From: a virus
Lineage: Duplodnaviria > Caudoviricetes
DNA: 60,196 nucleotides
Reading direction: 5' to 3' (one strand)
IMG/VR virus record: IMGVR_UViG_3300037755_000280
Location: 1-60,196 of that record
Shown here: in pieces, positions 2,908-39,014 of the stretch
How positions within the stretch are numbered: the first letter of the stretch is position 1
How the letters are laid out: each line of letters opens with the position of its first letter
The notes under the pieces: model-generated
Databases searched by the model: none
Told to the model about the DNA's origin: nothing
What the model saw: the letters and a program-made list of their open reading frames with translations, nothing else
Program-made: the position numbers and the translations under genes

Positions 2908-3512
2908 CGAAGTACTTCTACGACACCGAGTTCATCGAGGACGGCAAGACGATCGACCTCATCTCGATCGGGATCGTGTGCGAGGACGGGCGCGAGTACT
3001 ACGCCGTCAACGCCGAGATGCCGTTCCGGCGCATCCTGGCCAACAGGTGGCTCATGGACAACGTCGTGCCGGCGCTCCCGTTGCCGCCCGGCGGCCAGGC
3101 CGACTACGCGACCGGGTGGCTGTTCGACATCGCGCACCCCGCGGTCAAGCCGAAGTCGCAGATCGCCCGCGAGGTGCGCATCTTCCTGACCGGTGAGCCG
3201 GAGCTGTGGGCGTGGTACGGGGCGTATGACCACGTGGCCCTCGCGCAGCTCTGGGGCCCCATGATGGATCTGCCCGACGGCGTCCCGATGTGGACCAACG
3301 ACATCCGTCAGGAAGTCCTGCGCCTGGGCAACCCGCGTGTGCCCGAGCAGCCGTCCGGTCAGCACAACGCGCTGGAGGACGCGCGCTACAACTTCACGCG
3401 GTACGTGTTCCTGGAGCAGATCGCCCTGATCCGGGAACTGCACCCGGACATGAAGCTGGAGCTGGAGCAGGTGGGCGAACGTGTGAAGCACCGGATGGAG
3501 GAGGACACGTGA
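2904..3512 (+). CDS. DEDDh 3'-5' exonuclease, Rv2179c/RNase AS (DUF5051)-like
   Basis: YFYDTEFIEDGKTIDLISIGIVCEDGREYYAV, WAWYGAYDHVALAQLWGPM and HNALEDAR motifs. Confidence 0.88.
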   Translation: MTKYFYDTEFIEDGKTIDLISIGIVCEDGREYYAVNAEMPFRRILANRWLMDNVVPALPLPPGGQADYATGWLFDIAHPAVKPKSQIAREVRIFLTGEPELWAWYGAYDHVALAQLWGPMMDLPDGVPMWTNDIRQEVLRLGNPRVPEQPSGQHNALEDARYNFTRYVFLEQIALIRELHPDMKLELEQVGERVKHRMEEDT

Positions 3513-3814
3513 GCGAGGAACAGGTGGACCCGCGAGTGGAACAGGTGCGGGCGGTACGGCTGGAACACACGCGTGATGAGAACAGGTGCCTGTGGTGTCA
3601 CGAACACGTGCCCGAGCAGCGGCGGGGAACACGTGCCTGCAACGAGTGGCACGCCACTCTGTGGGCGGCGGAACGGGAGGGACGGGACACGTGCTGCCAG
3701 GTGTGCCGGGAACAGGACGCCGTCGACTTCACGCTGTCCCAGCTCCACCGGCGTGCGACCACGTGTTCCGGGCGGCACCGCAAGATCAAGTACAGAATCC
3801 GCAGGAACACGTGA
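3509..3814 (+). CDS. hypothetical Cys-rich protein
   Basis: GGAGGAG RBS, GTGA overlap, CxxC motifs. Confidence 0.55.
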   Translation: MSEEQVDPRVEQVRAVRLEHTRDENRCLWCHEHVPEQRRGTRACNEWHATLWAAEREGRDTCCQVCREQDAVDFTLSQLHRRATTCSGRHRKIKYRIRRNT

Positions 3815-31745: not shown

Positions 31746-33446
31746 TTAGAGCTTGCCCTGGATGAAGTTCGAGATCACGGCCGGGGCCGAGGAGTCGAAC
31801 CCGACCACGTTCAGGGTGCCGGGGTCGGTCGGGTCGCCGATGGTGAACTGGGTGGCGGTCATCATGACGACGATCAGCTTGGCGCGGGGGTTGATGCGAC
31901 GGCGGTACTCGGTGAGCGCGTCGACCACCTGCACCTTGCCGCCCCACGTCTCGTTGTCGGAGTAGATGACGAACGCGTCGTACTCCTTCTTGTGAGCCGC
32001 CGCCCACAGGATCGGCAGAGCGCAGTCCGTGCCTCCCCAGGGGAGCTTGCCGGTCTCGGTGATGATGTCGTCCAGCCGCCGGCGGGGGGACAGGCCCACC
32101 TCCTGAATGCCCGAGGACAGCGCGTAGCCCACCCGGTTGGGCTGGTACTGCCCCTCGGGGCACCAGCCGGCGCTGGTGAACGCGACGACGTCGGTGGTTA
32201 CCGGGTCGGCGGCGACGGTGGCCATGGACATGGCGACCGACCCGATCCGGGCGGTGATGCTGGAGTCCATCAGCGGCGCCGACATCGAGGCCGAGACGTC
32301 CAGGCCCACGAGGATGCGCTGGCCGGTGGGCTCCACGTTCTGGAACGCCTTGTAGAAGGCGCCGTCGAGGGCGTCCACGATGGGCTGCTTGGGCGCCCAG
32401 GCCAGCTTGCCGCGGAAGCCGTGTCCACCGGTGTAGGTGGTCAGGGCGGTGAGCACGTTGAACGGGTGCACGCGAGCCTTGGTGATGTGGTCGCCGTCGC
32501 CCAGTATCCGGCCGACGGCGACCACGTACTCGGCCTGGTCGAACACGCCGATCTTCGTCATGCGGCCGAGGTTGCGCAGCATGGCGGTGTAGGGCAGCTT
32601 GCGGTTGGTGATGAGCGCGCGCCACACCTCGGGGTCGGCCAGTGCGGCGCTGGGCAGCATCTCCCACGTCAGCGCGTCGGCCTGGGTGGGGGCCAGGTCG
32701 CCGTGCTTGACCCGCTGGAACTGGTCCAGTACGACCGGCAGGTCGCCGGCGGCCAGGTGCTCCTGGTAGTCGGCGTCCTCGGTGCCCTTGACGGCGTAGC
32801 CGACCACGCCGCGCGGGGTGCCGGTGAGCTTGGGGTGGGCCATGCGCAGGACGTCGCGGTGGGCCCAGCCCTTGCGCGACTGGTACTTGAGCATCTGGTA
32901 GGCCAGGTCGTCGGCGCCCCGGTCCTCGTACCAGGAAGCGACCAGGCGGCGCAGGCTCGCGCCCCACTTGCGGAACATCAGCGCGTACTGAACGAACTCA
33001 AACAGGTGGGAGCCCGTGCGCACGAAGCTGGTGAACTCGTCGTCGATGAGGTCGCGGACGGGGTGGCGCTCCTGGAGCTTCTTGGTCTCCTCCCCGCGCT
33101 GCACCTCGATGGTGTGGGTGGCGGGGGTGAGGCTGTGCAGGATCGCCAGGCCCAGCAGGACGGTCGAGTGGCGGGCGGCGAGGTTGCCGTTGTTGACCTC
33201 CTTGAGGATCTTCCACATGGCGACCGGCTCGCTGGTGGCCATGGTCTGGAGGGTCTGGAAGTTGTGCATGGTCAGGCTGCGCTCGTTGGCGTAGAAGCTG
33301 CCGCCCTCGGAGCCGAGGATGAGGAAGCGGCGCACCCGCTGCGCGTCGTCGACCTGGTAGACGTAGCCGCCGGCGTTGTTGGTGACCTGGGCCGGGTCGC
33401 GGCGCTCGCGCTGGGTGGGTCGGGTGTCGATCTGGTCGTACTTCAT
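31746..33446 (-). CDS. rsr: Ro60/Rsr TROVE-vWA RNA-binding protein (566 aa)
   Basis: NNAGGY...RRFLILGSEGGSFY, KYQSRKGWAHRDVLRMAHPK, LTWEMLPS, TAMLRNL, MIDAS DVSASM, GGTDCALP, SDNETW, VVGFD; GGAGGAG RBS before ATG 33446. Confidence 0.96.
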   Translation of the reverse strand: MKYDQIDTRPTQRERRDPAQVTNNAGGYVYQVDDAQRVRRFLILGSEGGSFYANERSLTMHNFQTLQTMATSEPVAMWKILKEVNNGNLAARHSTVLLGLAILHSLTPATHTIEVQRGEETKKLQERHPVRDLIDDEFTSFVRTGSHLFEFVQYALMFRKWGASLRRLVASWYEDRGADDLAYQMLKYQSRKGWAHRDVLRMAHPKLTGTPRGVVGYAVKGTEDADYQEHLAAGDLPVVLDQFQRVKHGDLAPTQADALTWEMLPSAALADPEVWRALITNRKLPYTAMLRNLGRMTKIGVFDQAEYVVAVGRILGDGDHITKARVHPFNVLTALTTYTGGHGFRGKLAWAPKQPIVDALDGAFYKAFQNVEPTGQRILVGLDVSASMSAPLMDSSITARIGSVAMSMATVAADPVTTDVVAFTSAGWCPEGQYQPNRVGYALSSGIQEVGLSPRRRLDDIITETGKLPWGGTDCALPILWAAAHKKEYDAFVIYSDNETWGGKVQVVDALTEYRRRINPRAKLIVVMMTATQFTIGDPTDPGTLNVVGFDSSAPAVISNFIQGKL

Positions 33447-33468
33447 GCTCTCCTCCATGGGAACGACA

Positions 33469-33499
33469 AGCGGCGCACCCCCCTGGGGGGTGCGCCGCT
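33469..33499 (-). terminator. perfect inverted repeat between the Y RNA array and Ro60
   Basis: AGCGGCGCACCCCCC-T-GGGGGGTGCGCCGCT, followed on the - strand by TGTCGTT. Confidence 0.6.
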
Positions 33500-33507
33500 C
33501 GGACGGG

Positions 33508-33572
33508 TGTCGCGGATGTGGGGTTGAGGCCGGGTTATTTTTCCGATAACCGGCGTTCGTCGACCCGCGACA
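33508..33572 (-). ncRNA. Y RNA-like ncRNA 6 (minimal, 65 nt)
   Basis: UGUCGCGG-GUCGACG..GCCGGUUAUC...CCGGC..CACAU-CCGCGACA; no tRNA-like domain. Confidence 0.75.
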
Positions 33573-33581
33573 GGGTCTGAA

Positions 33582-33703
33582 CGGCGGATGTGGTGTGAGG
33601 CTCGGATGACTGATCACCGGCGTGCCCCTGTGTTGAGCAGGGAGCCGTGTGGTCCAACTCCACAAGGGTTTGTGTTGGATAACCGAGTCTCTTCGACCCG
33701 CCG
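33582..33703 (-). ncRNA. Y RNA-like ncRNA 5 (divergent multi-hairpin domain, 122 nt)
   Basis: CGGCGG-GUCGAAG..CUCGGUUAUC...CCGAG..CACAU-CCGCCG. Confidence 0.8.
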
Positions 33704-33719
33704 CGATTGATTTGTGAGT

Positions 33720-33818
33720 GCGCTGGATGTGGTTTGCGTCCCGGGGACAGCCAGCCTCCCGCGTCAGGCGCGGGCTCGGAGTCGAACCAAGGGTAACCGG
33801 GTCGCTTCGACCCAGCGC
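33720..33818 (-). ncRNA. Y RNA-like ncRNA 4 (T-arm retained, 99 nt)
   Basis: GCGCUGG-GUCGAAG..CCCGGUUACC; T-arm CUUGG-UUCGACU-CCGAG; closed stem CCCGCG/CGCGGG; ..CACAU-CCAGCGC. Confidence 0.85.
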
Positions 33819-33833
33819 TGTGTGAAGTTATGA

Positions 33834-33941
33834 CGTCAGATGTGTGTTGGTGGCCGATGGGCTCCCGCCCAGGCACTACAGGTGCCTACGTCGTGCATCG
33901 TAGGACTTCATGGTGGATAACCAGCCGCCGTCGACCTGACG
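33834..33941 (-). ncRNA. Y RNA-like ncRNA 3 (three hairpins without tRNA sequence motifs, 108 nt)
   Basis: CGUCAG-GUCGACG..GCUGGUUAUC...CGGC..CACAU-CUGACG. Confidence 0.8.
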
Positions 33942-33956
33942 CTTAAGGCGCTTACA

Positions 33957-34085
33957 TGGCAGATGTGGGTTGATGCCGGAAGGTGCTCTGCCTAGTTGAG
34001 CTACCGGGACCATGAAGGGCCCCGGGCGGGATTCGAACCCGCAACCGCCTCCTCCGAATGGTAACCGGCGATCTTCGACCTGCCA
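33957..34085 (-). ncRNA. YrlA-like Y RNA 2 (complete permuted tRNA mimic, 129 nt)
   Basis: UGGCAG-GUCGAAG; T-arm GCGGG-UUCGAAU-CCCGC; closed acceptor CCGGGGCC/GGUCCCGG; D-arm UAGCUCAACUAGGCAGAGC; CACAU-CUGCCA. Confidence 0.9.
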
Positions 34086-34100
34086 CTATATGAAGTTTGC

Positions 34101-34239
34101 CCTGATGGATGTGGGGTGGATGCCGGGGTTTAAGCGTCCTAGGCCGCTGGACGACCCTGGTGGATGACAACCAGGACTGGGATTCGAACCCAGGTTTCTC
34201 CGGTGGAAGCGGTAACCGGCGCTCCTTCGACCCATCAGG
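34101..34239 (-). ncRNA. YrlA-like Y RNA 1 (complete permuted tRNA mimic, 139 nt)
   Basis: CCUGAUGG-GUCGAAG; T-arm CUGGG-UUCGAAU-CCCAG; closed acceptor CCUGG/CCAGG; D-arm CGUCCAGCGGCCUAGGACG; CACAU-CCAUCAGG. Confidence 0.9.
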
Positions 34240-34281
34240 TCTGTCTACAGCGGCCACCGTACACGAGGATGAGGTATACCG

Positions 34282-34602
34282 CTACCTCTTTGTCCTCGTC
34301 GTCCGCGAGACGCCGTCGAGTTCCTTCTGCGCCTCGCCGTGCTCGGCGCACCAGTAGGTGTGTTCGCCCTGGATCGTCCGTCGTAGGACGGCTCGGTTGG
34401 GGGCGTGGGTGTCGTGTGGCCAGTGCTCGTGTACCCACTTGAGGCAGGCGTCGCAGTGGACAGGGTCCTGGACCTTGTAGCTGGCCCATCTGATCTTCGC
34501 CCTGGTGGTCTCCCTGGGCTTGGCTTCACCTGCGCCGCGTCGGGCGTCGTGAGCTGGGGGGAGATCCAGCCCGAGGTCGAGAGTGATCTCCTCCCAGCTC
34601 AC
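34282..34602 (-). CDS. hypothetical Zn-binding protein
   Basis: CDAC and WCAEH motifs; GGAGG RBS. Confidence 0.65.
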   Translation of the reverse strand: MSWEEITLDLGLDLPPAHDARRGAGEAKPRETTRAKIRWASYKVQDPVHCDACLKWVHEHWPHDTHAPNRAVLRRTIQGEHTYWCAEHGEAQKELDGVSRTTRTKR

Positions 34603-37242: not shown

Positions 37243-37511
37243 ATGAAGTCCTTGAAGCGGTTCTTGAGGAGCTGCTCGTACTCCTCGTGCACCTGTTCCT
37301 GAGCCTCGATGGCGGTGGCGCCGTCCAGGATCAGGAGGCTGGCTCGCACGCCCTGGATTGCTCCGAGGCACGAGCCGAGCATGATCAGTCCCAGAAGCGC
37401 CGGGGGCCCCACCCCGATGGTCTTGACGATCACCTCCAGCTCGGCCTCCAGCTTGACGCGCTGGTTCTCGCTGGCTTGCAGGAGCTCGTTCATCTCCTGC
37501 CGGGCGCTCAC
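37239..37511 (-). CDS. hypothetical protein
   Basis: Overlapping start/stop codons. Confidence 0.55.
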   Translation of the reverse strand: MSARQEMNELLQASENQRVKLEAELEVIVKTIGVGPPALLGLIMLGSCLGAIQGVRASLLILDGATAIEAQEQVHEEYEQLLKNRFKDFM

Positions 37512-38485
37512 TGGCCCTGCTCGCGCAGCTTCTGGCCACGGGTGGAGAACGCCTCCTGGACGGTCCGGTGGCGGTTCCCACCGTCCTGGGCGTTGTACAT
37601 CTCGATGAGGCGGTTGACGTCGCCGGTGCGCTCGATGGCGGCCAGCAGTTCCTCGTCGGTCATTCGCGGCGCACGGCGCTCGGCCTCGTACATCATCTGG
37701 TCGGGGTCCGACTCGGTGGTGGGCAGCCGGAGGGTCTGGATCAACGCCGTGCGGTAGGCCACCGACATCGCCTTGGCGGTGGCCTTGTCACCGGAGTCGA
37801 ACGCCTCACCCGGGGCCTGGGCGAAGATGGTGTCGACGCCGTCGGTGAAGGCGTACTCCACCTGCACCTCGACGGTGTTCATCACGGCACCCTTGGCCGT
37901 GGAGGCGGTGCCTCGCTTCACGCTGAGAACCTTGCACGGGTAGGTGAACACGCCGTGGTCGTTCAGGGGGCCGTCCACGGCGTTGATGACCGCGTCGATG
38001 CCGCGGAAGTTCCATCCTTGTTGCATGTTGCGCTCGCCCTTGCCGACGGCGCCGATGGCCTGCTTCGCGGCGATCAGGCGTTCGATGAGAGTGGGCGGTG
38101 TGGTGGTCTTGTCTGGCATGTCTTCCTCTTCGTAGTGGTACTCGATGACGGTGAGCCCGACCTTGCGGGCTTCTCGGATGCAGTTCGCGGTGCCTGGCGA
38201 GCCGTCTCGGACGAACGCCAGGACCAGGTCGGTGGCGGGGTCGAGCGTGGCGACCATGGCCCGGTTGCGTGCGGGGCCGGCGCCATGCCCGGTCTGCCAG
38301 TTGGCGGGGTGCGGTTCCTGGACCAGGCCGTACTTGGCCGCGACGCGTGCGGCGTGCAGGTCCGCCCCTCGGGGGCACGCGCCGTGCACGATCACCACGT
38401 CCGAGCCATCCGCGTGGTCGCGGATGGCTTGCTCGACCACGTGCGGCTTGTCCCAGGCTCGGGCACCGGTGACCAGGAACCGCAC
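37508..38485 (-). CDS. erf: DUF2493/YspA-type SLOG domain in frame with ERF single-strand annealing protein (possible internal start at 38119)
   Basis: FLVTGARAW..VHGACPRGAD..AGPARNRAM..SPGTANC (SLOG); NFRGIDAVINA..GEAFDSGDKATAKAMSVAYRTAL (ERF); no stop between them. Confidence 0.85.
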   Translation of the reverse strand: MRFLVTGARAWDKPHVVEQAIRDHADGSDVVIVHGACPRGADLHAARVAAKYGLVQEPHPANWQTGHGAGPARNRAMVATLDPATDLVLAFVRDGSPGTANCIREARKVGLTVIEYHYEEEDMPDKTTTPPTLIERLIAAKQAIGAVGKGERNMQQGWNFRGIDAVINAVDGPLNDHGVFTYPCKVLSVKRGTASTAKGAVMNTVEVQVEYAFTDGVDTIFAQAPGEAFDSGDKATAKAMSVAYRTALIQTLRLPTTESDPDQMMYEAERRAPRMTDEELLAAIERTGDVNRLIEMYNAQDGGNRHRTVQEAFSTRGQKLREQGQ

Positions 38486-38487
38486 CG

Positions 38488-38583
38488 CTACAGGATCAGG
38501 TAGACGACGACGAACATCATCACGATGGCGATGATCACGCTGGCGATGATGGTGCCGGGGCCGTTGTTCAGGCCGTCGCTCAT
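38488..38583 (-). CDS. 31-aa single-TM protein
   Basis: MSDGLNNGPGTIIASVIIAIVMMFVVVYLIL; TGATG overlap. Confidence 0.55.
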   Translation of the reverse strand: MSDGLNNGPGTIIASVIIAIVMMFVVVYLIL

Positions 38584-39014
38584 CAGCCGTCGCCTTCAAG
38601 GTCTCCGGAGGTCTCGAAGTCGATGTCCGGCAAGACGGTCTCGGGCTTGACGATGATGCGGGTGTGGTACACGTCGACATCGATCGGGTCCAGTTGCACC
38701 GAGGAGTACAGGGCGTTGTCCCCGATCCCCGTGTGGTGCTTGCGGAAGTCGCCCTCCCCGTGCTTGCACACGGTGACCAGCTTCCGGGCCTCGGGTTCGA
38801 TGGAGCAGCGTCCTTCGGTCTCGAACACGACCTCGCCGGTGAACGGGTGGATGACGGTGATGCGCCGCTGGACCTCGAACTGCTCGGCCGCCTTGCTCAA
38901 GTTCTCGGACGCCATGTCGGCGTCGCTGGTACAGCCGGCGCTGGTGGCCAGGATGAGACCGGCGGTGGTGGCCCAGGTGCCGAGGGTGGTCAGTGCGGTG
39001 CGTGTGCGGTTCAT
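38583..39014 (-). CDS. lipoprotein
   Basis: Signal peptide with lipobox SAGC; ADMASENLSKAAEQFEVQRRI phage family motif. Confidence 0.8.
   Translation of the reverse strand: MNRTRTALTTLGTWATTAGLILATSAGCTSDADMASENLSKAAEQFEVQRRITVIHPFTGEVVFETEGRCSIEPEARKLVTVCKHGEGDFRKHHTGIGDNALYSSVQLDPIDVDVYHTRIIVKPETVLPDIDFETSGDLEGDG

What the first reader, a model, noticed from the sequence alone, without database searches (positions are those of the whole stretch)
33508..33941. Graded diversification of the distal domain across Y RNA units 3-6
Seen: unit 4 keeps a canonical T-loop (UUCGACU) and a closed stem but has a collapsed D-arm. Unit 3 keeps three hairpins (CUACG/CGUAG, GCAC/GUGC, UGGGC/GCCCA) with no tRNA sequence motifs. 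Unit 5 has a UGUGG-AGUUGGA-CCACA arm with a 7-nt non-canonical loop plus a long bulged hairpin. Unit 6 is only the Ro-binding stem with a short GGAAAAA-containing cap. Pairing is preserved while loop sequences are replaced, which argues against simple decay. Inference: a constant handle with variable payload, where each RNA may recruit a different partner and the minimal RNA may act as a gate or competitor for Ro60. tRNA-like models would probably miss these units.
Basis: partly seen in the sequence, partly recalled or inferred. Interest (0 to 1): 0.8.

Follow-up and report, generated by a model that had tools for sequence, protein, structure and literature searches.

The report
Six-unit phage Y RNA array
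An uncultured high-GC phage carries six tandem Y RNA genes in front of its Ro60 (Rsr) gene, and the four flagged units are real Y RNAs whose outer part is reduced or replaced: a known kind of RNA in an unusually large and varied set.

Summary
On the minus strand, 34239-33508, six Y-RNA-like units lie head to tail, 62 nt upstream of a Ro60/Rsr gene (TROVE and vWA_Ro60 domains). The finding's coordinates match units 3-6.

All six share a covarying Ro-binding handle. A model built only from other loci finds these six and nothing else in the window.

- **U4**: has a clear ortholog in the one moderately close relative, G001 (Rsr 55% identical, 10 units). The T loop is identical and every stem substitution keeps pairing.
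- **U5**: ortholog by handle, 80% identical.
- **U6**: counterpart in G001 of the same size and last position.
- **U3**: no ortholog, and its hairpins fold no better than shuffles.
probably wrong.

Mixed arrays of long, intermediate and minimal units are common at phage rsr loci: 10, 7, 6, 6 and 6 units elsewhere, and 2-5 unannotated units in cultured actinophages.

The "constant handle, variable payload" idea is the established Y RNA model (Chen 2014). What my searches did not find in print is the array size, the unit classes and the uneven divergence. No RNA data exist, so partner recruitment is untested.

Verdict: new variant of a known kind, of moderate interest.

The parts
34101..34239 (-). 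Y RNA unit 1 (about 138 nt), full tRNA-like (YrlA-type) distal domain. Context for the finding.
   Evidence: R1 98.4 bits, R2 69.3 bits. Ortholog is G001 unit 1: distal alignment z 18.3, handle 90% identical, T-arm pairs changed on both sides. The ARAGORN 'tRNA-Gly' call lies inside it.
33957..34085 (-). Y RNA unit 2 (about 129 nt), canonical YrlA-like T arm, AS stem and D arm. Context for the finding.
   Evidence: Rfam YrlA 41.9 bits, below the cut-off of 69. R1 97.1 and R2 64.2 bits. Best distal match is G001 unit 4, z 10.1.
33832..33942 (-). Y RNA unit 3 (111 nt): intact handle with GUCGACG motif; distal domain without tRNA motifs; structure unverified.
   Evidence: R1 88.8 bits; R2 39.0 bits, E 6.5e-7, the weakest of the six. 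Distal fold z -0.22. No significant distal match to any G001 unit.
33719..33819 (-). Y RNA unit 4 (about 100 nt): handle, T arm (UUCGACU loop), 6-bp hairpin, degenerate third arm.
   Evidence: R1 90.7 and R2 57.2 bits. Ortholog is G001 unit 9: distal z 11.6. 11 of 11 pairs are standard in both, 3 changed on both sides, T loop 7 of 7 identical. Layout -43.6 against MFE -46.3 kcal/mol.
33581..33704 (-). Y RNA unit 5 (124 nt): handle, a hairpin directly after UUAUC, and a long bulged hairpin.
   Evidence: R1 108.7 and R2 56.8 bits. Distal fold z -2.15. Handle 80% identical to G001 unit 5, the best of ten. First hairpin sits at the same position in both, with 3 of 6 pairs changed on both sides (read from the folds).
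33508..33572 (-). Y RNA unit 6 (65 nt): minimal unit, handle plus 16-nt cap, GUCGACG motif.
   Evidence: R1 63.5 and R2 48.9 bits. Fold z -2.57. G001's last unit is also 65 nt, with 3 stem-2 pairs changed on both sides. Units of 64-75 nt occur in many other arrays.
33469..33501 (-). 16-bp G+C hairpin between the last Y RNA and the rsr ribosome-binding site; likely terminator, attenuator or processing barrier (inferred).
   Evidence: MFE -40.6 kcal/mol for 33447-33507, z -5.16. G001 has a 13-bp hairpin at the same place, z -3.76.
31746..33446 (-). rsr (Ro60 ortholog), 566 aa.
   Evidence: Pfam vWA_Ro60 1.7e-50 and TROVE 1.1e-45. 55% identical to G001 Rsr. Best cultured-phage match 43.1%, Gordonia phage GMA2.
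34262..34297 (-). Hairpin upstream of unit 1. It probably ends the preceding gene, so the array's promoter is expected between it and 34240 (inferred).
   Evidence: Fold of 34240-34300, z -2.47. The consensus scan found no sigma-70-type promoter and only a + strand terminator-like site at 34271-34288.

Best explanation
Units 3-6 are genuine, diverged Y RNA genes. They belong to a six-gene Y RNA array lying directly upstream of, and on the same strand as, the phage's Ro60 (rsr) gene.

Shown:
- Each unit keeps the Ro60-binding handle: a terminal stem, an internal loop with G-Y-C-G-A-A/C, a 3-bp stem and a 5-bp stem, then UUAYC, with CACAUC on the 3' side.
- The distal domains differ. U1 and U2 are full tRNA-like. 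U4 has a T arm and one hairpin. U5 has two non-tRNA hairpins. U3 is non-tRNA with an unverified fold. U6 has almost nothing.

Inferred:
- The array is transcribed as one precursor.
- It is cut in the 8-15-nt single-stranded spacers, two of which carry AACUUCA. That motif fits the RN|CNU preference of mycobacterial RNase E.
- The strong hairpin before rsr keeps Y RNA output above rsr output.
- Each RNA binds Rsr through the handle. The tRNA-like modules tether Rsr to host tRNA- or RNA-handling enzymes such as PNPase. The other modules offer other surfaces. The minimal U6 only occupies or gates Rsr.

The tRNA-like modules evolve slowly. The non-tRNA modules and the copy number evolve fast.
For: - Rsr identity.
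- Six units and no other match in the window, with a self-built model and with a model built from other loci only.
- Handle covariation over 81 units from 20 sources: 93.8% of cells paired against 63.7% in shuffles (0 of 500 reach it) and 25-43% when slid. 16 of 17 pairs changed on both sides.
- Strand and place: 58 of 58 matches in 39 IMG/VR rsr loci and 56 of 56 in 80 metagenome rsr loci lie on the rsr strand.
- Relative G001: Rsr 55% identical, 10 units, neighbouring genes shared.
- U4 and G001 unit 9: distal z 11.6; 11 of 11 pairs kept, 3 with both sides changed, T loop identical.
- U5 and G001 unit 5: handle 80% identical; the first hairpin is positionally conserved.
- U6 and G001 unit 10: same last position and length, stem-2 pairs compensated.
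- Uneven divergence: distal domains of U1, U2 and U4 are alignable with G001 (z 18.3, 10.1, 11.6). Those of U3, U5 and U6 are not.
- Not an assembly artefact: contigs of four other runs lie on the stretch with 0 differences and bridge all five unit junctions.
- Published frame: at least two Y RNAs per characterised bacterium, one tRNA-like; M. smegmatis YrlA and YrlB cut from one precursor upstream of rsr; GNCGAAN0-1G motif (PMC4201824, passages). Phage phiLo Ro60 binds two upstream Yrls and host PNPase (PMC12135203, passages).
- RN|CNU preference: PMC10641625, passages.
Against: - No expression, processing or binding data exist.
- Only one relative closer than 45% Rsr identity was found, so covariation in distal domains rests on two sequences and has no statistical power (59 of 500 shuffles reach the observed values).
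- Distal folding energies of U3 and U4 are no better than shuffles (z -0.22 and -0.37).
- The distal domains of U3, U5 and U6 have no significant sequence match in G001.
- U6 and G001 unit 10 are linked by position, size and terminal stem only. Overall handle identity is 69%, not the best in its row.
- The unit order is not fully colinear: U5 matches G001 unit 5, U4 matches unit 9.
- U3 and U6 carry GUCGAC instead of the published GNCGAA. This is seen in 5 of 81 aligned units, 2 of them these.
- Alignment A6 was fitted to the model. R2's training units were picked by R1, so the two models are not fully independent.
- The AACU motif is in only 2 of 5 window spacers.
Confidence: 0.75

Rival explanations
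1. Some of units 3-6, above all U3, are decaying duplicates of a tRNA-like Y RNA. They are still recognisable by their handle but are no longer functional.
For: U3 has the lowest score under the independent model (39.0 bits), no ortholog, a distal fold at chance level and a departure from GNCGAA. U4's third arm is degenerate compared with G001 unit 9, which forms a 4-bp hairpin there. Copy number differs between the two phages, 6 against 10.
Against: All four handles are complete and pair. U4's substitutions against G001 unit 9 all preserve pairing. Intermediate and minimal units make up 45 of the 81 aligned units in many arrays, so reduced forms are kept widely. Phage genomes rarely keep about 400 nt of dead sequence (general knowledge).
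Confidence: 0.15
2. The proximal units (U5, U6 and the hairpin) are not free RNAs. They are a structured leader of the rsr mRNA through which Rsr regulates its own synthesis by binding handle-like sites.
For: U6 ends 62 nt before the rsr start. A strong hairpin, and a small fold that pairs with the Shine-Dalgarno region, lie between them in both phages. No promoter was found between the array and rsr.
Against: In Microbacterium phage FuzzBuster the last minimal unit ends 8 nt before rsr with no hairpin. Minimal units also lie downstream of rsr or among tRNA genes in other phages. M. smegmatis YrlB, encoded between YrlA and rsr, is a discrete Rsr-bound RNA (PMC4201824).
Confidence: 0.07
3. The repeats are not Y RNAs but another repeated structured element that happens to lie next to rsr.
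For: No Rfam family reaches its gathering score.
Against: YrlA partial match on U2 at E 1.2e-7. The motif and architecture match published Y RNAs. 114 of 114 related matches lie on the rsr strand at rsr loci.
Confidence: 0.03

Closest known systems
Mycobacterium smegmatis YrlA and YrlB (Chen et al. 2014, PMC4201824)
   Same: Encoded upstream of rsr on the same strand and cut from one precursor. One is tRNA-like; one is shorter, with only a possible T arm (compare U4). GNCGAAN0-1G motif in the 5' strand of the handle.
   Different: Two RNAs there, six here. U3, U5 and U6 have no tRNA element at all. U3 and U6 carry GUCGAC.
Deinococcus radiodurans Yrn1 and Yrn2 (plus RNAs a, b, d) and Salmonella YrlA and YrlB
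   Same: Several small RNAs next to rsr. [quoted passage not shown] YrlA and Yrn1 tether Rsr to PNPase (passages).
   Different: The U6 cap loop is A-rich (CGGAAAA), not pyrimidine-rich. The array here is tandem, with 8-15-nt spacers.
Thermus phage phiLo Ro60 with Yrl1 and Yrl2 (PMC12135203)
   Same: A phage-encoded Ro60 with Y-like RNAs directly upstream, a CGAA motif and a stem-bulge-stem handle. Binding to phage Ro60 and to host PNPase was shown there.
   Different: Two units against six. No class diversity is described in the passages I read.
Rfam YrlA (RF02553)
   Same: U2 matches model positions 23-89, the T arm, AS stem and D arm.
   Different: U2 is below the gathering score (41.9 against 69). 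U3, U5 and U6 have no match at E<=10. U4 matches only Deinococcus_Y_RNA, at E 0.51.
Vertebrate Y RNA families (two to four per species)
   Same: A conserved Ro60-binding stem with variable loops thought to bind different proteins (statement in PMC4201824).
   Different: Those genes are dispersed or clustered and transcribed by Pol III, not a polycistronic array. They have no tRNA-like module.

Membership tests
Bacterial/phage Y RNA (Rsr-associated, sensu Chen 2014) | Encoded within about 4 kb of rsr on the same strand | tested here: met
   U3-U6 lie 62-496 nt upstream of the rsr start at 33446, on the minus strand.
Bacterial/phage Y RNA (Rsr-associated, sensu Chen 2014) | The 5' and 3' ends pair into a long stem interrupted by an internal loop | tested here: met
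   Present in the MFE of U3-U6. Handle pairs covary across 81 units. Independent model R2 scores them at 39.0-57.2 bits.
Bacterial/phage Y RNA (Rsr-associated, sensu Chen 2014) | GNCGAAN0-1G motif near the 5' end | tested here: inconclusive
   U4 and U5 have GUCGAAG (met). U3 and U6 have GUCGACG, one base off. In 81 aligned units GYCGAA is commonest, and GYCGGA, GYCGAC and GUCGCU also occur.
Bacterial/phage Y RNA (Rsr-associated, sensu Chen 2014) | Length 80-130 nt | tested here: inconclusive
   U3 is 111, U4 about 100 and U5 124 nt (met). U6 is 65 nt (shorter). 22 of 81 aligned units are 80 nt or less.
Bacterial/phage Y RNA (Rsr-associated, sensu Chen 2014) | Bound by Rsr, with Rsr-dependent accumulation | not testable with these tools
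   This needs immunoprecipitation or Northern blots.
YrlA (tRNA-like Y RNA, Rfam RF02553) | T arm, AS stem and D arm; score at or above the gathering cut-off | tested here: not met
   No match at the gathering score. U4 has a T arm and one stem but no D arm. U3, U5 and U6 have none of the three.
YrlB/Yrn2-type Y RNA | [quoted passage not shown] | tested here: inconclusive
   U6 is a long hairpin, but its loop CGGAAAA is purine-rich. The cap of G001 unit 10 is pyrimidine-rich.
tRNA | Cloverleaf recognised by ARAGORN or Rfam tRNA | tested here: not met
   No tRNA call in 33508-33942. The only Rfam tRNA match is a 21-nt piece of U2 at E 7.4.

The most novel reading that the evidence does not exclude
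Phage Y RNA arrays are fast-evolving adaptor libraries. One phage Ro60 is loaded with up to ten interchangeable RNAs. Slowly evolving tRNA-like modules dock it to conserved host tRNA and RNA enzymes. Rapidly diverging non-tRNA modules (U3, U5) and copy-number changes (6 against 10 units at 55% Rsr identity) track variable host targets such as defence nucleases or their RNA products. The minimal unit sets the pool of gated Ro60. A Ro60-like phage protein has been reported as a counter to the Ppl defence system (bioRxiv 10.1101/2024.10.10.617714, passage read).
Probability: 0.2. Interest if true: 0.8.

Novelty: new variant of a known kind. Interest (0 to 1): 0.5.

Why it matters
Y RNAs are understood as modular: a Ro60-binding handle plus an effector part. 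In bacteria and phages, however, only the tRNA-like class has been catalogued, because searches used tRNA-like models. Chen 2014 reported 355 YrlAs in 276 genomes.

This locus and the survey built on it show three things:
- Phage rsr loci often carry arrays of 3-10 Y RNAs.
- More than half of the units are not tRNA-like.
- Such units are unannotated, or lie under 'hypothetical protein' calls, in cultured actinophages such as Essence and FuzzBuster, where they could be tested directly.

A handle-only covariance model is a practical way to annotate them. The contrast between conserved tRNA-like modules and fast-diverging ones gives a testable handle on what phage Ro60 is aimed at.

Tried and rejected
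**Closer relatives for covariation**
- blastn of the array against GenBank phages found nothing.
- The single-protein scan of IMG/VR found none.
- A U1-specific pattern in IMG/VR found only G001.
- A U4-specific pattern in metagenome contigs gave 0 matches.
- The Rsr-profile scan of metagenome contigs gave at best 41% identity.
- Distal-domain covariation therefore rests on one relative.

**Population variation**
- I laid contigs of four runs with low word shares, hoping for variants. All long pieces were identical to the window (0 other letters). The low shares were low coverage, not divergence.

**Expression**
- No RNA holder is listed among the 24 runs. This says nothing about expression.

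**Alternative conformer of U4**
- The handle GGGUCGAA can pair with the T loop UUCGACUC, and RNAalifold on a poor two-sequence alignment picked this.
- I rejected it: -26.6 kcal/mol against -43.6 and -46.3.

**Other leads**
- The MAFFT alignments of U4 with G9 and of U5 with G5 over whole units were misaligned at the 3' end or in the distal part. I used ungapped sub-stretches or direct reading instead.
- The sigma-70 consensus scan found no promoter. This is uninformative for an actinobacterial host.
- PHROGs and Pfam gave no RNA-metabolism partner gene (PNPase, RtcB, CCA enzyme) among the 10 and 10 neighbouring proteins scanned. The rest of the window was not scanned.

**Papers not held**
- The Annual Review 2020, Microbiol Spectrum 2018 and Crit Rev 2019 on Ro60 and Y RNAs were not available.
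- Supplements of Chen 2014 (Tables S1 and S2, which list phage YrlAs) are closed.
- Either could already report multi-unit phage arrays.
- My statement that arrays of 6-10 mixed units are not in print rests on searches only.

Full report
**What is there**

The window is a whole IMG/VR virus record of 60,196 b, 96% complete, with 67% G+C. It has the usual layout of an actinobacterial-type siphovirus. Structural and lysis genes lie on the + strand. Replication and recombination genes (DnaB-like helicase, Erf-like protein, exonuclease) lie on the - strand.

On the - strand, a 566-aa gene at 33446-31746 is a Ro60/Rsr ortholog: vWA_Ro60 1.7e-50 and TROVE 1.1e-45. Directly upstream, six units lie head to tail, separated by spacers of 8-15 nt:

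| Unit | Coordinates (- strand) |
|---|---|
| U1 | 34239-34101 |
| U2 | 34085-33957 |
| U3 | 33942-33832 |
| U4 | 33819-33719 |
| U5 | 33704-33581 |
| U6 | 33572-33508 |

The finding's coordinates are exactly U3-U6.

**The repeat is real and specific**

- The six units share 21 invariant columns: GGUCGA, G, GGUUA and C on the 5' side, and CACAUC on the 3' side.
- They share one handle: a terminal stem of 8-10 bp, an internal loop, a 3-bp stem, a 5-bp stem, then UUAYC.
- Model R1, built from the six units, scores them at 63.5-108.7 bits. The next best match in the window scores 15.7 bits.
- Because that model is self-trained, I built R2 from 57 units of 23 other loci, leaving out the window and its relative. 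Over window plus L133 (69,897 b, both strands, filters off, E<=1) R2 returns 16 matches. These are the six window units (U1 69.3, U2 64.2, U4 57.2, U5 56.8, U6 48.9, U3 39.0 bits) and the ten units of the relative, and nothing else.
- R2's training units were chosen by R1, so the independence is partial.
- Contigs from four other public runs, none flagged as a possible source, lie on the stretch with no differences. They bridge all five unit junctions. The array is therefore not an assembly artefact.

**They are Y RNAs**

- The place, the strand and the 5' motif agree with the published definition of bacterial Y RNAs: within 4 kb of rsr, same strand, GNCGAAN0-1G (PMC4201824, passages read).
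- U2 matches Rfam YrlA over its T arm, AS stem and D arm at E 1.2e-7. The score of 41.9 bits is below the cut-off of 69.
- I scanned rsr loci fetched from IMG/VR (39 loci) and from metagenomes (80 loci; a few are the same contigs). R1 found 58 matches in 22 of the 39 loci and 56 matches in 28 of the 80. All 114 lie on the rsr strand.
- On an alignment of 81 such units from 20 sources, the 17 handle pairs are paired in 93.8% of cells. Shuffles give 63.7% (0 of 500 reach the observed value) and slid partners give 25-43%. Sixteen of the 17 pairs show changes on both sides.
- That alignment was fitted to the model, which favours the structure.

*U4.* It has the T arm CUUGG-UUCGACU-CCGAG, a 6-bp hairpin and a degenerate third element. 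That layout is 2.7 kcal/mol above the MFE.

*U6.* It is the handle plus a 16-nt cap.

*U3.* Its three hairpins can be drawn. The distal domain folds no better than shuffles (z -0.22), and the drawn structure is about 10 kcal/mol above the MFE.

*U5.* The arm UGUGG/CCACA is 4.6 kcal/mol worse than the MFE. It also excludes the hairpin UCCAAC/GUUGGA, which begins right after UUAUC. G001 unit 5 has a hairpin at the same place (CCCAGA/UCUGGG), with three of six pairs changed on both sides (read from the folds).

*The prediction that tRNA-like models miss these units.* It holds even for U1 and U2 at curated thresholds.

Only one moderately close relative exists in what I could search. It is G001, an IMG/VR record of 58 kb with Rsr 55% identical and several shared neighbouring genes. 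It carries ten units upstream of rsr.

Distal domains align significantly for three pairs only:

| Window unit | G001 unit | z |
|---|---|---|
| U1 | 1 | 18.3 |
| U2 | 4 | 10.1 |
| U4 | 9 | 11.6 |

*U4 against unit 9.* Over the 34 nt of T arm plus hairpin there are nine substitutions.
- Seven lie in stems, and all seven keep pairing: 11 of 11 pairs are standard in both, with 3 changed on both sides.
- Two lie in the hairpin loop.
- None lies in the T loop.
- With two sequences this has no statistical weight (59 of 500 shuffles reach it), but it is not what decay looks like.

*U5.* It is tied to unit 5 by its handle, 80% identical and the best of ten, and by the first hairpin.

*U6.* It is tied to unit 10 by last position, equal length (65 nt), a near-identical terminal stem and three compensated stem-2 pairs. 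Overall handle identity is only 69%.

*U3.* It has no counterpart.

So the tRNA-like modules are conserved, while the non-tRNA modules and the copy number have diverged beyond alignment at the same evolutionary distance.

**How unusual it is**

Arrays are common at phage rsr loci. By R1 at E<=0.01, G001 has 10 units, L170 (the same contig as L235) has 7, and L171, L207 and L180 have 6 each. Many loci have 2-4.

The 81 aligned units fall into three length classes:

| Length | Units |
|---|---|
| over 120 nt | 36 |
| 81-120 nt | 23 |
| 80 nt or less | 22 |

The same classes recur in unrelated arrays: full tRNA-like, T-arm-only, non-tRNA long and minimal.

Cultured actinophages carry unannotated units (filters off, E<=0.1):

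| Phage | Units |
|---|---|
| Microbacterium phage FuzzBuster | 3 |
| Mycobacterium phage Essence | 3, under two 'hypothetical protein' calls |
| Gordonia phage BearBQ | 2 |
| Gordonia phage Mareelih | 5, some between tRNA genes |
| Gordonia phage GMA2 | 3, some between tRNA genes |

R1 was trained on this window's handle, so counts in distant loci are lower bounds.

**How it most likely works**

Shown: a constant, covarying handle, variable distal modules, and rsr immediately downstream.

From the literature (passages):
- Rsr binds the handle.
- tRNA-like Y RNAs tether Rsr to PNPase.
- M. smegmatis YrlA and YrlB are cut from one precursor upstream of rsr.
- A phage Ro60 binds its two upstream Yrls and host PNPase.

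Inferred here:
- One precursor starts between the hairpin at 34297-34262 and U1.
- It is cut in the spacers. AACUUCA is present in 2 of 5 window spacers. AACU is present in 7 of 9 G001 spacers and in 8 of 30 spacers of other arrays. This fits RN|CNU of mycobacterial RNase E (PMC10641625).
- The 16-bp hairpin before rsr limits read-through. It has z -5.16, and G001 has a 13-bp hairpin at the same place.
- That the distal modules recruit different partners, and that U6 acts only as a gate or competitor, is plausible and untested.

**Novelty**

The kind is known, and the modular idea is the standard one. What I did not find in print is a phage array of 6-10 mixed units, the recurring non-tRNA classes, or the uneven divergence. 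Three reviews were not held and the supplements of Chen 2014 are closed, so this may be incomplete.

Noticed in passing
window 34168-34241 (-): ARAGORN calls a tRNA-Gly(tcc) here. It lies inside Y RNA unit 1 and uses that unit's T arm, so it is almost certainly a false tRNA call.
   Followed up: partly
window 34086-34100 and 33820-33831 (-); L133 spacers 2912-3765: Spacers between Y units carry AACUUCA or AACUGAA: 2 of 5 in the window, 7 of 9 in G001 and 8 of 30 in other arrays. This fits the RN|CNU cleavage preference of mycobacterial RNase E (PMC10641625). It may be the processing signal.
   Followed up: partly
window 33447-33507 (-); L133 3944-4000: A very stable hairpin (16 bp; 13 bp in G001) sits between the last Y RNA and rsr. 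In both phages a small second fold pairs the following U/C tract with the Shine-Dalgarno region. This may control rsr output.
   Followed up: partly
L133 3003-3082; L170 7011-7090; L168 3672-3783: Units with a hairpin whose 7-nt loop reads CUGCUAA (ACUGCUAAU) recur in three otherwise unrelated arrays. It looks like an anticodon-loop mimic. It is absent from the window.
   Followed up: no
L256 2077-2425 (Mycobacterium phage Essence); L255 4850-5485 (Gordonia phage Mareelih); L253 4667-5488 (GMA2); L257 2190-2481 (FuzzBuster): Cultured actinophages carry unannotated Y RNA units. In Essence they lie under two small 'hypothetical protein' CDS. In Mareelih and GMA2 several sit between tRNA genes, and one overlaps an annotated tRNA-Leu(gag).
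   Followed up: partly
window 33719-33819 (-): U4's T loop UUCGACUC is an 8-nt complement of its own handle motif GGGUCGAA, as in G001 unit 9. The conformer is much less stable (-26.6 against -43.6 and -46.3 kcal/mol), so a switch is unlikely.
   Followed up: yes
window 33832-33942 and 33581-33704 (-): U3 and U5 both start their distal domain with UUAUCCA(C/A)CA, and their handles are 73-76% alike. They may be diverged duplicates of one ancestor.
   Followed up: no
window 37508-38680 (-): The Erf-like annealing protein has an N-terminal YAcAr/SLOG-type domain: PF10686 1.2e-11 and ERF 1.7e-11.
   Followed up: no
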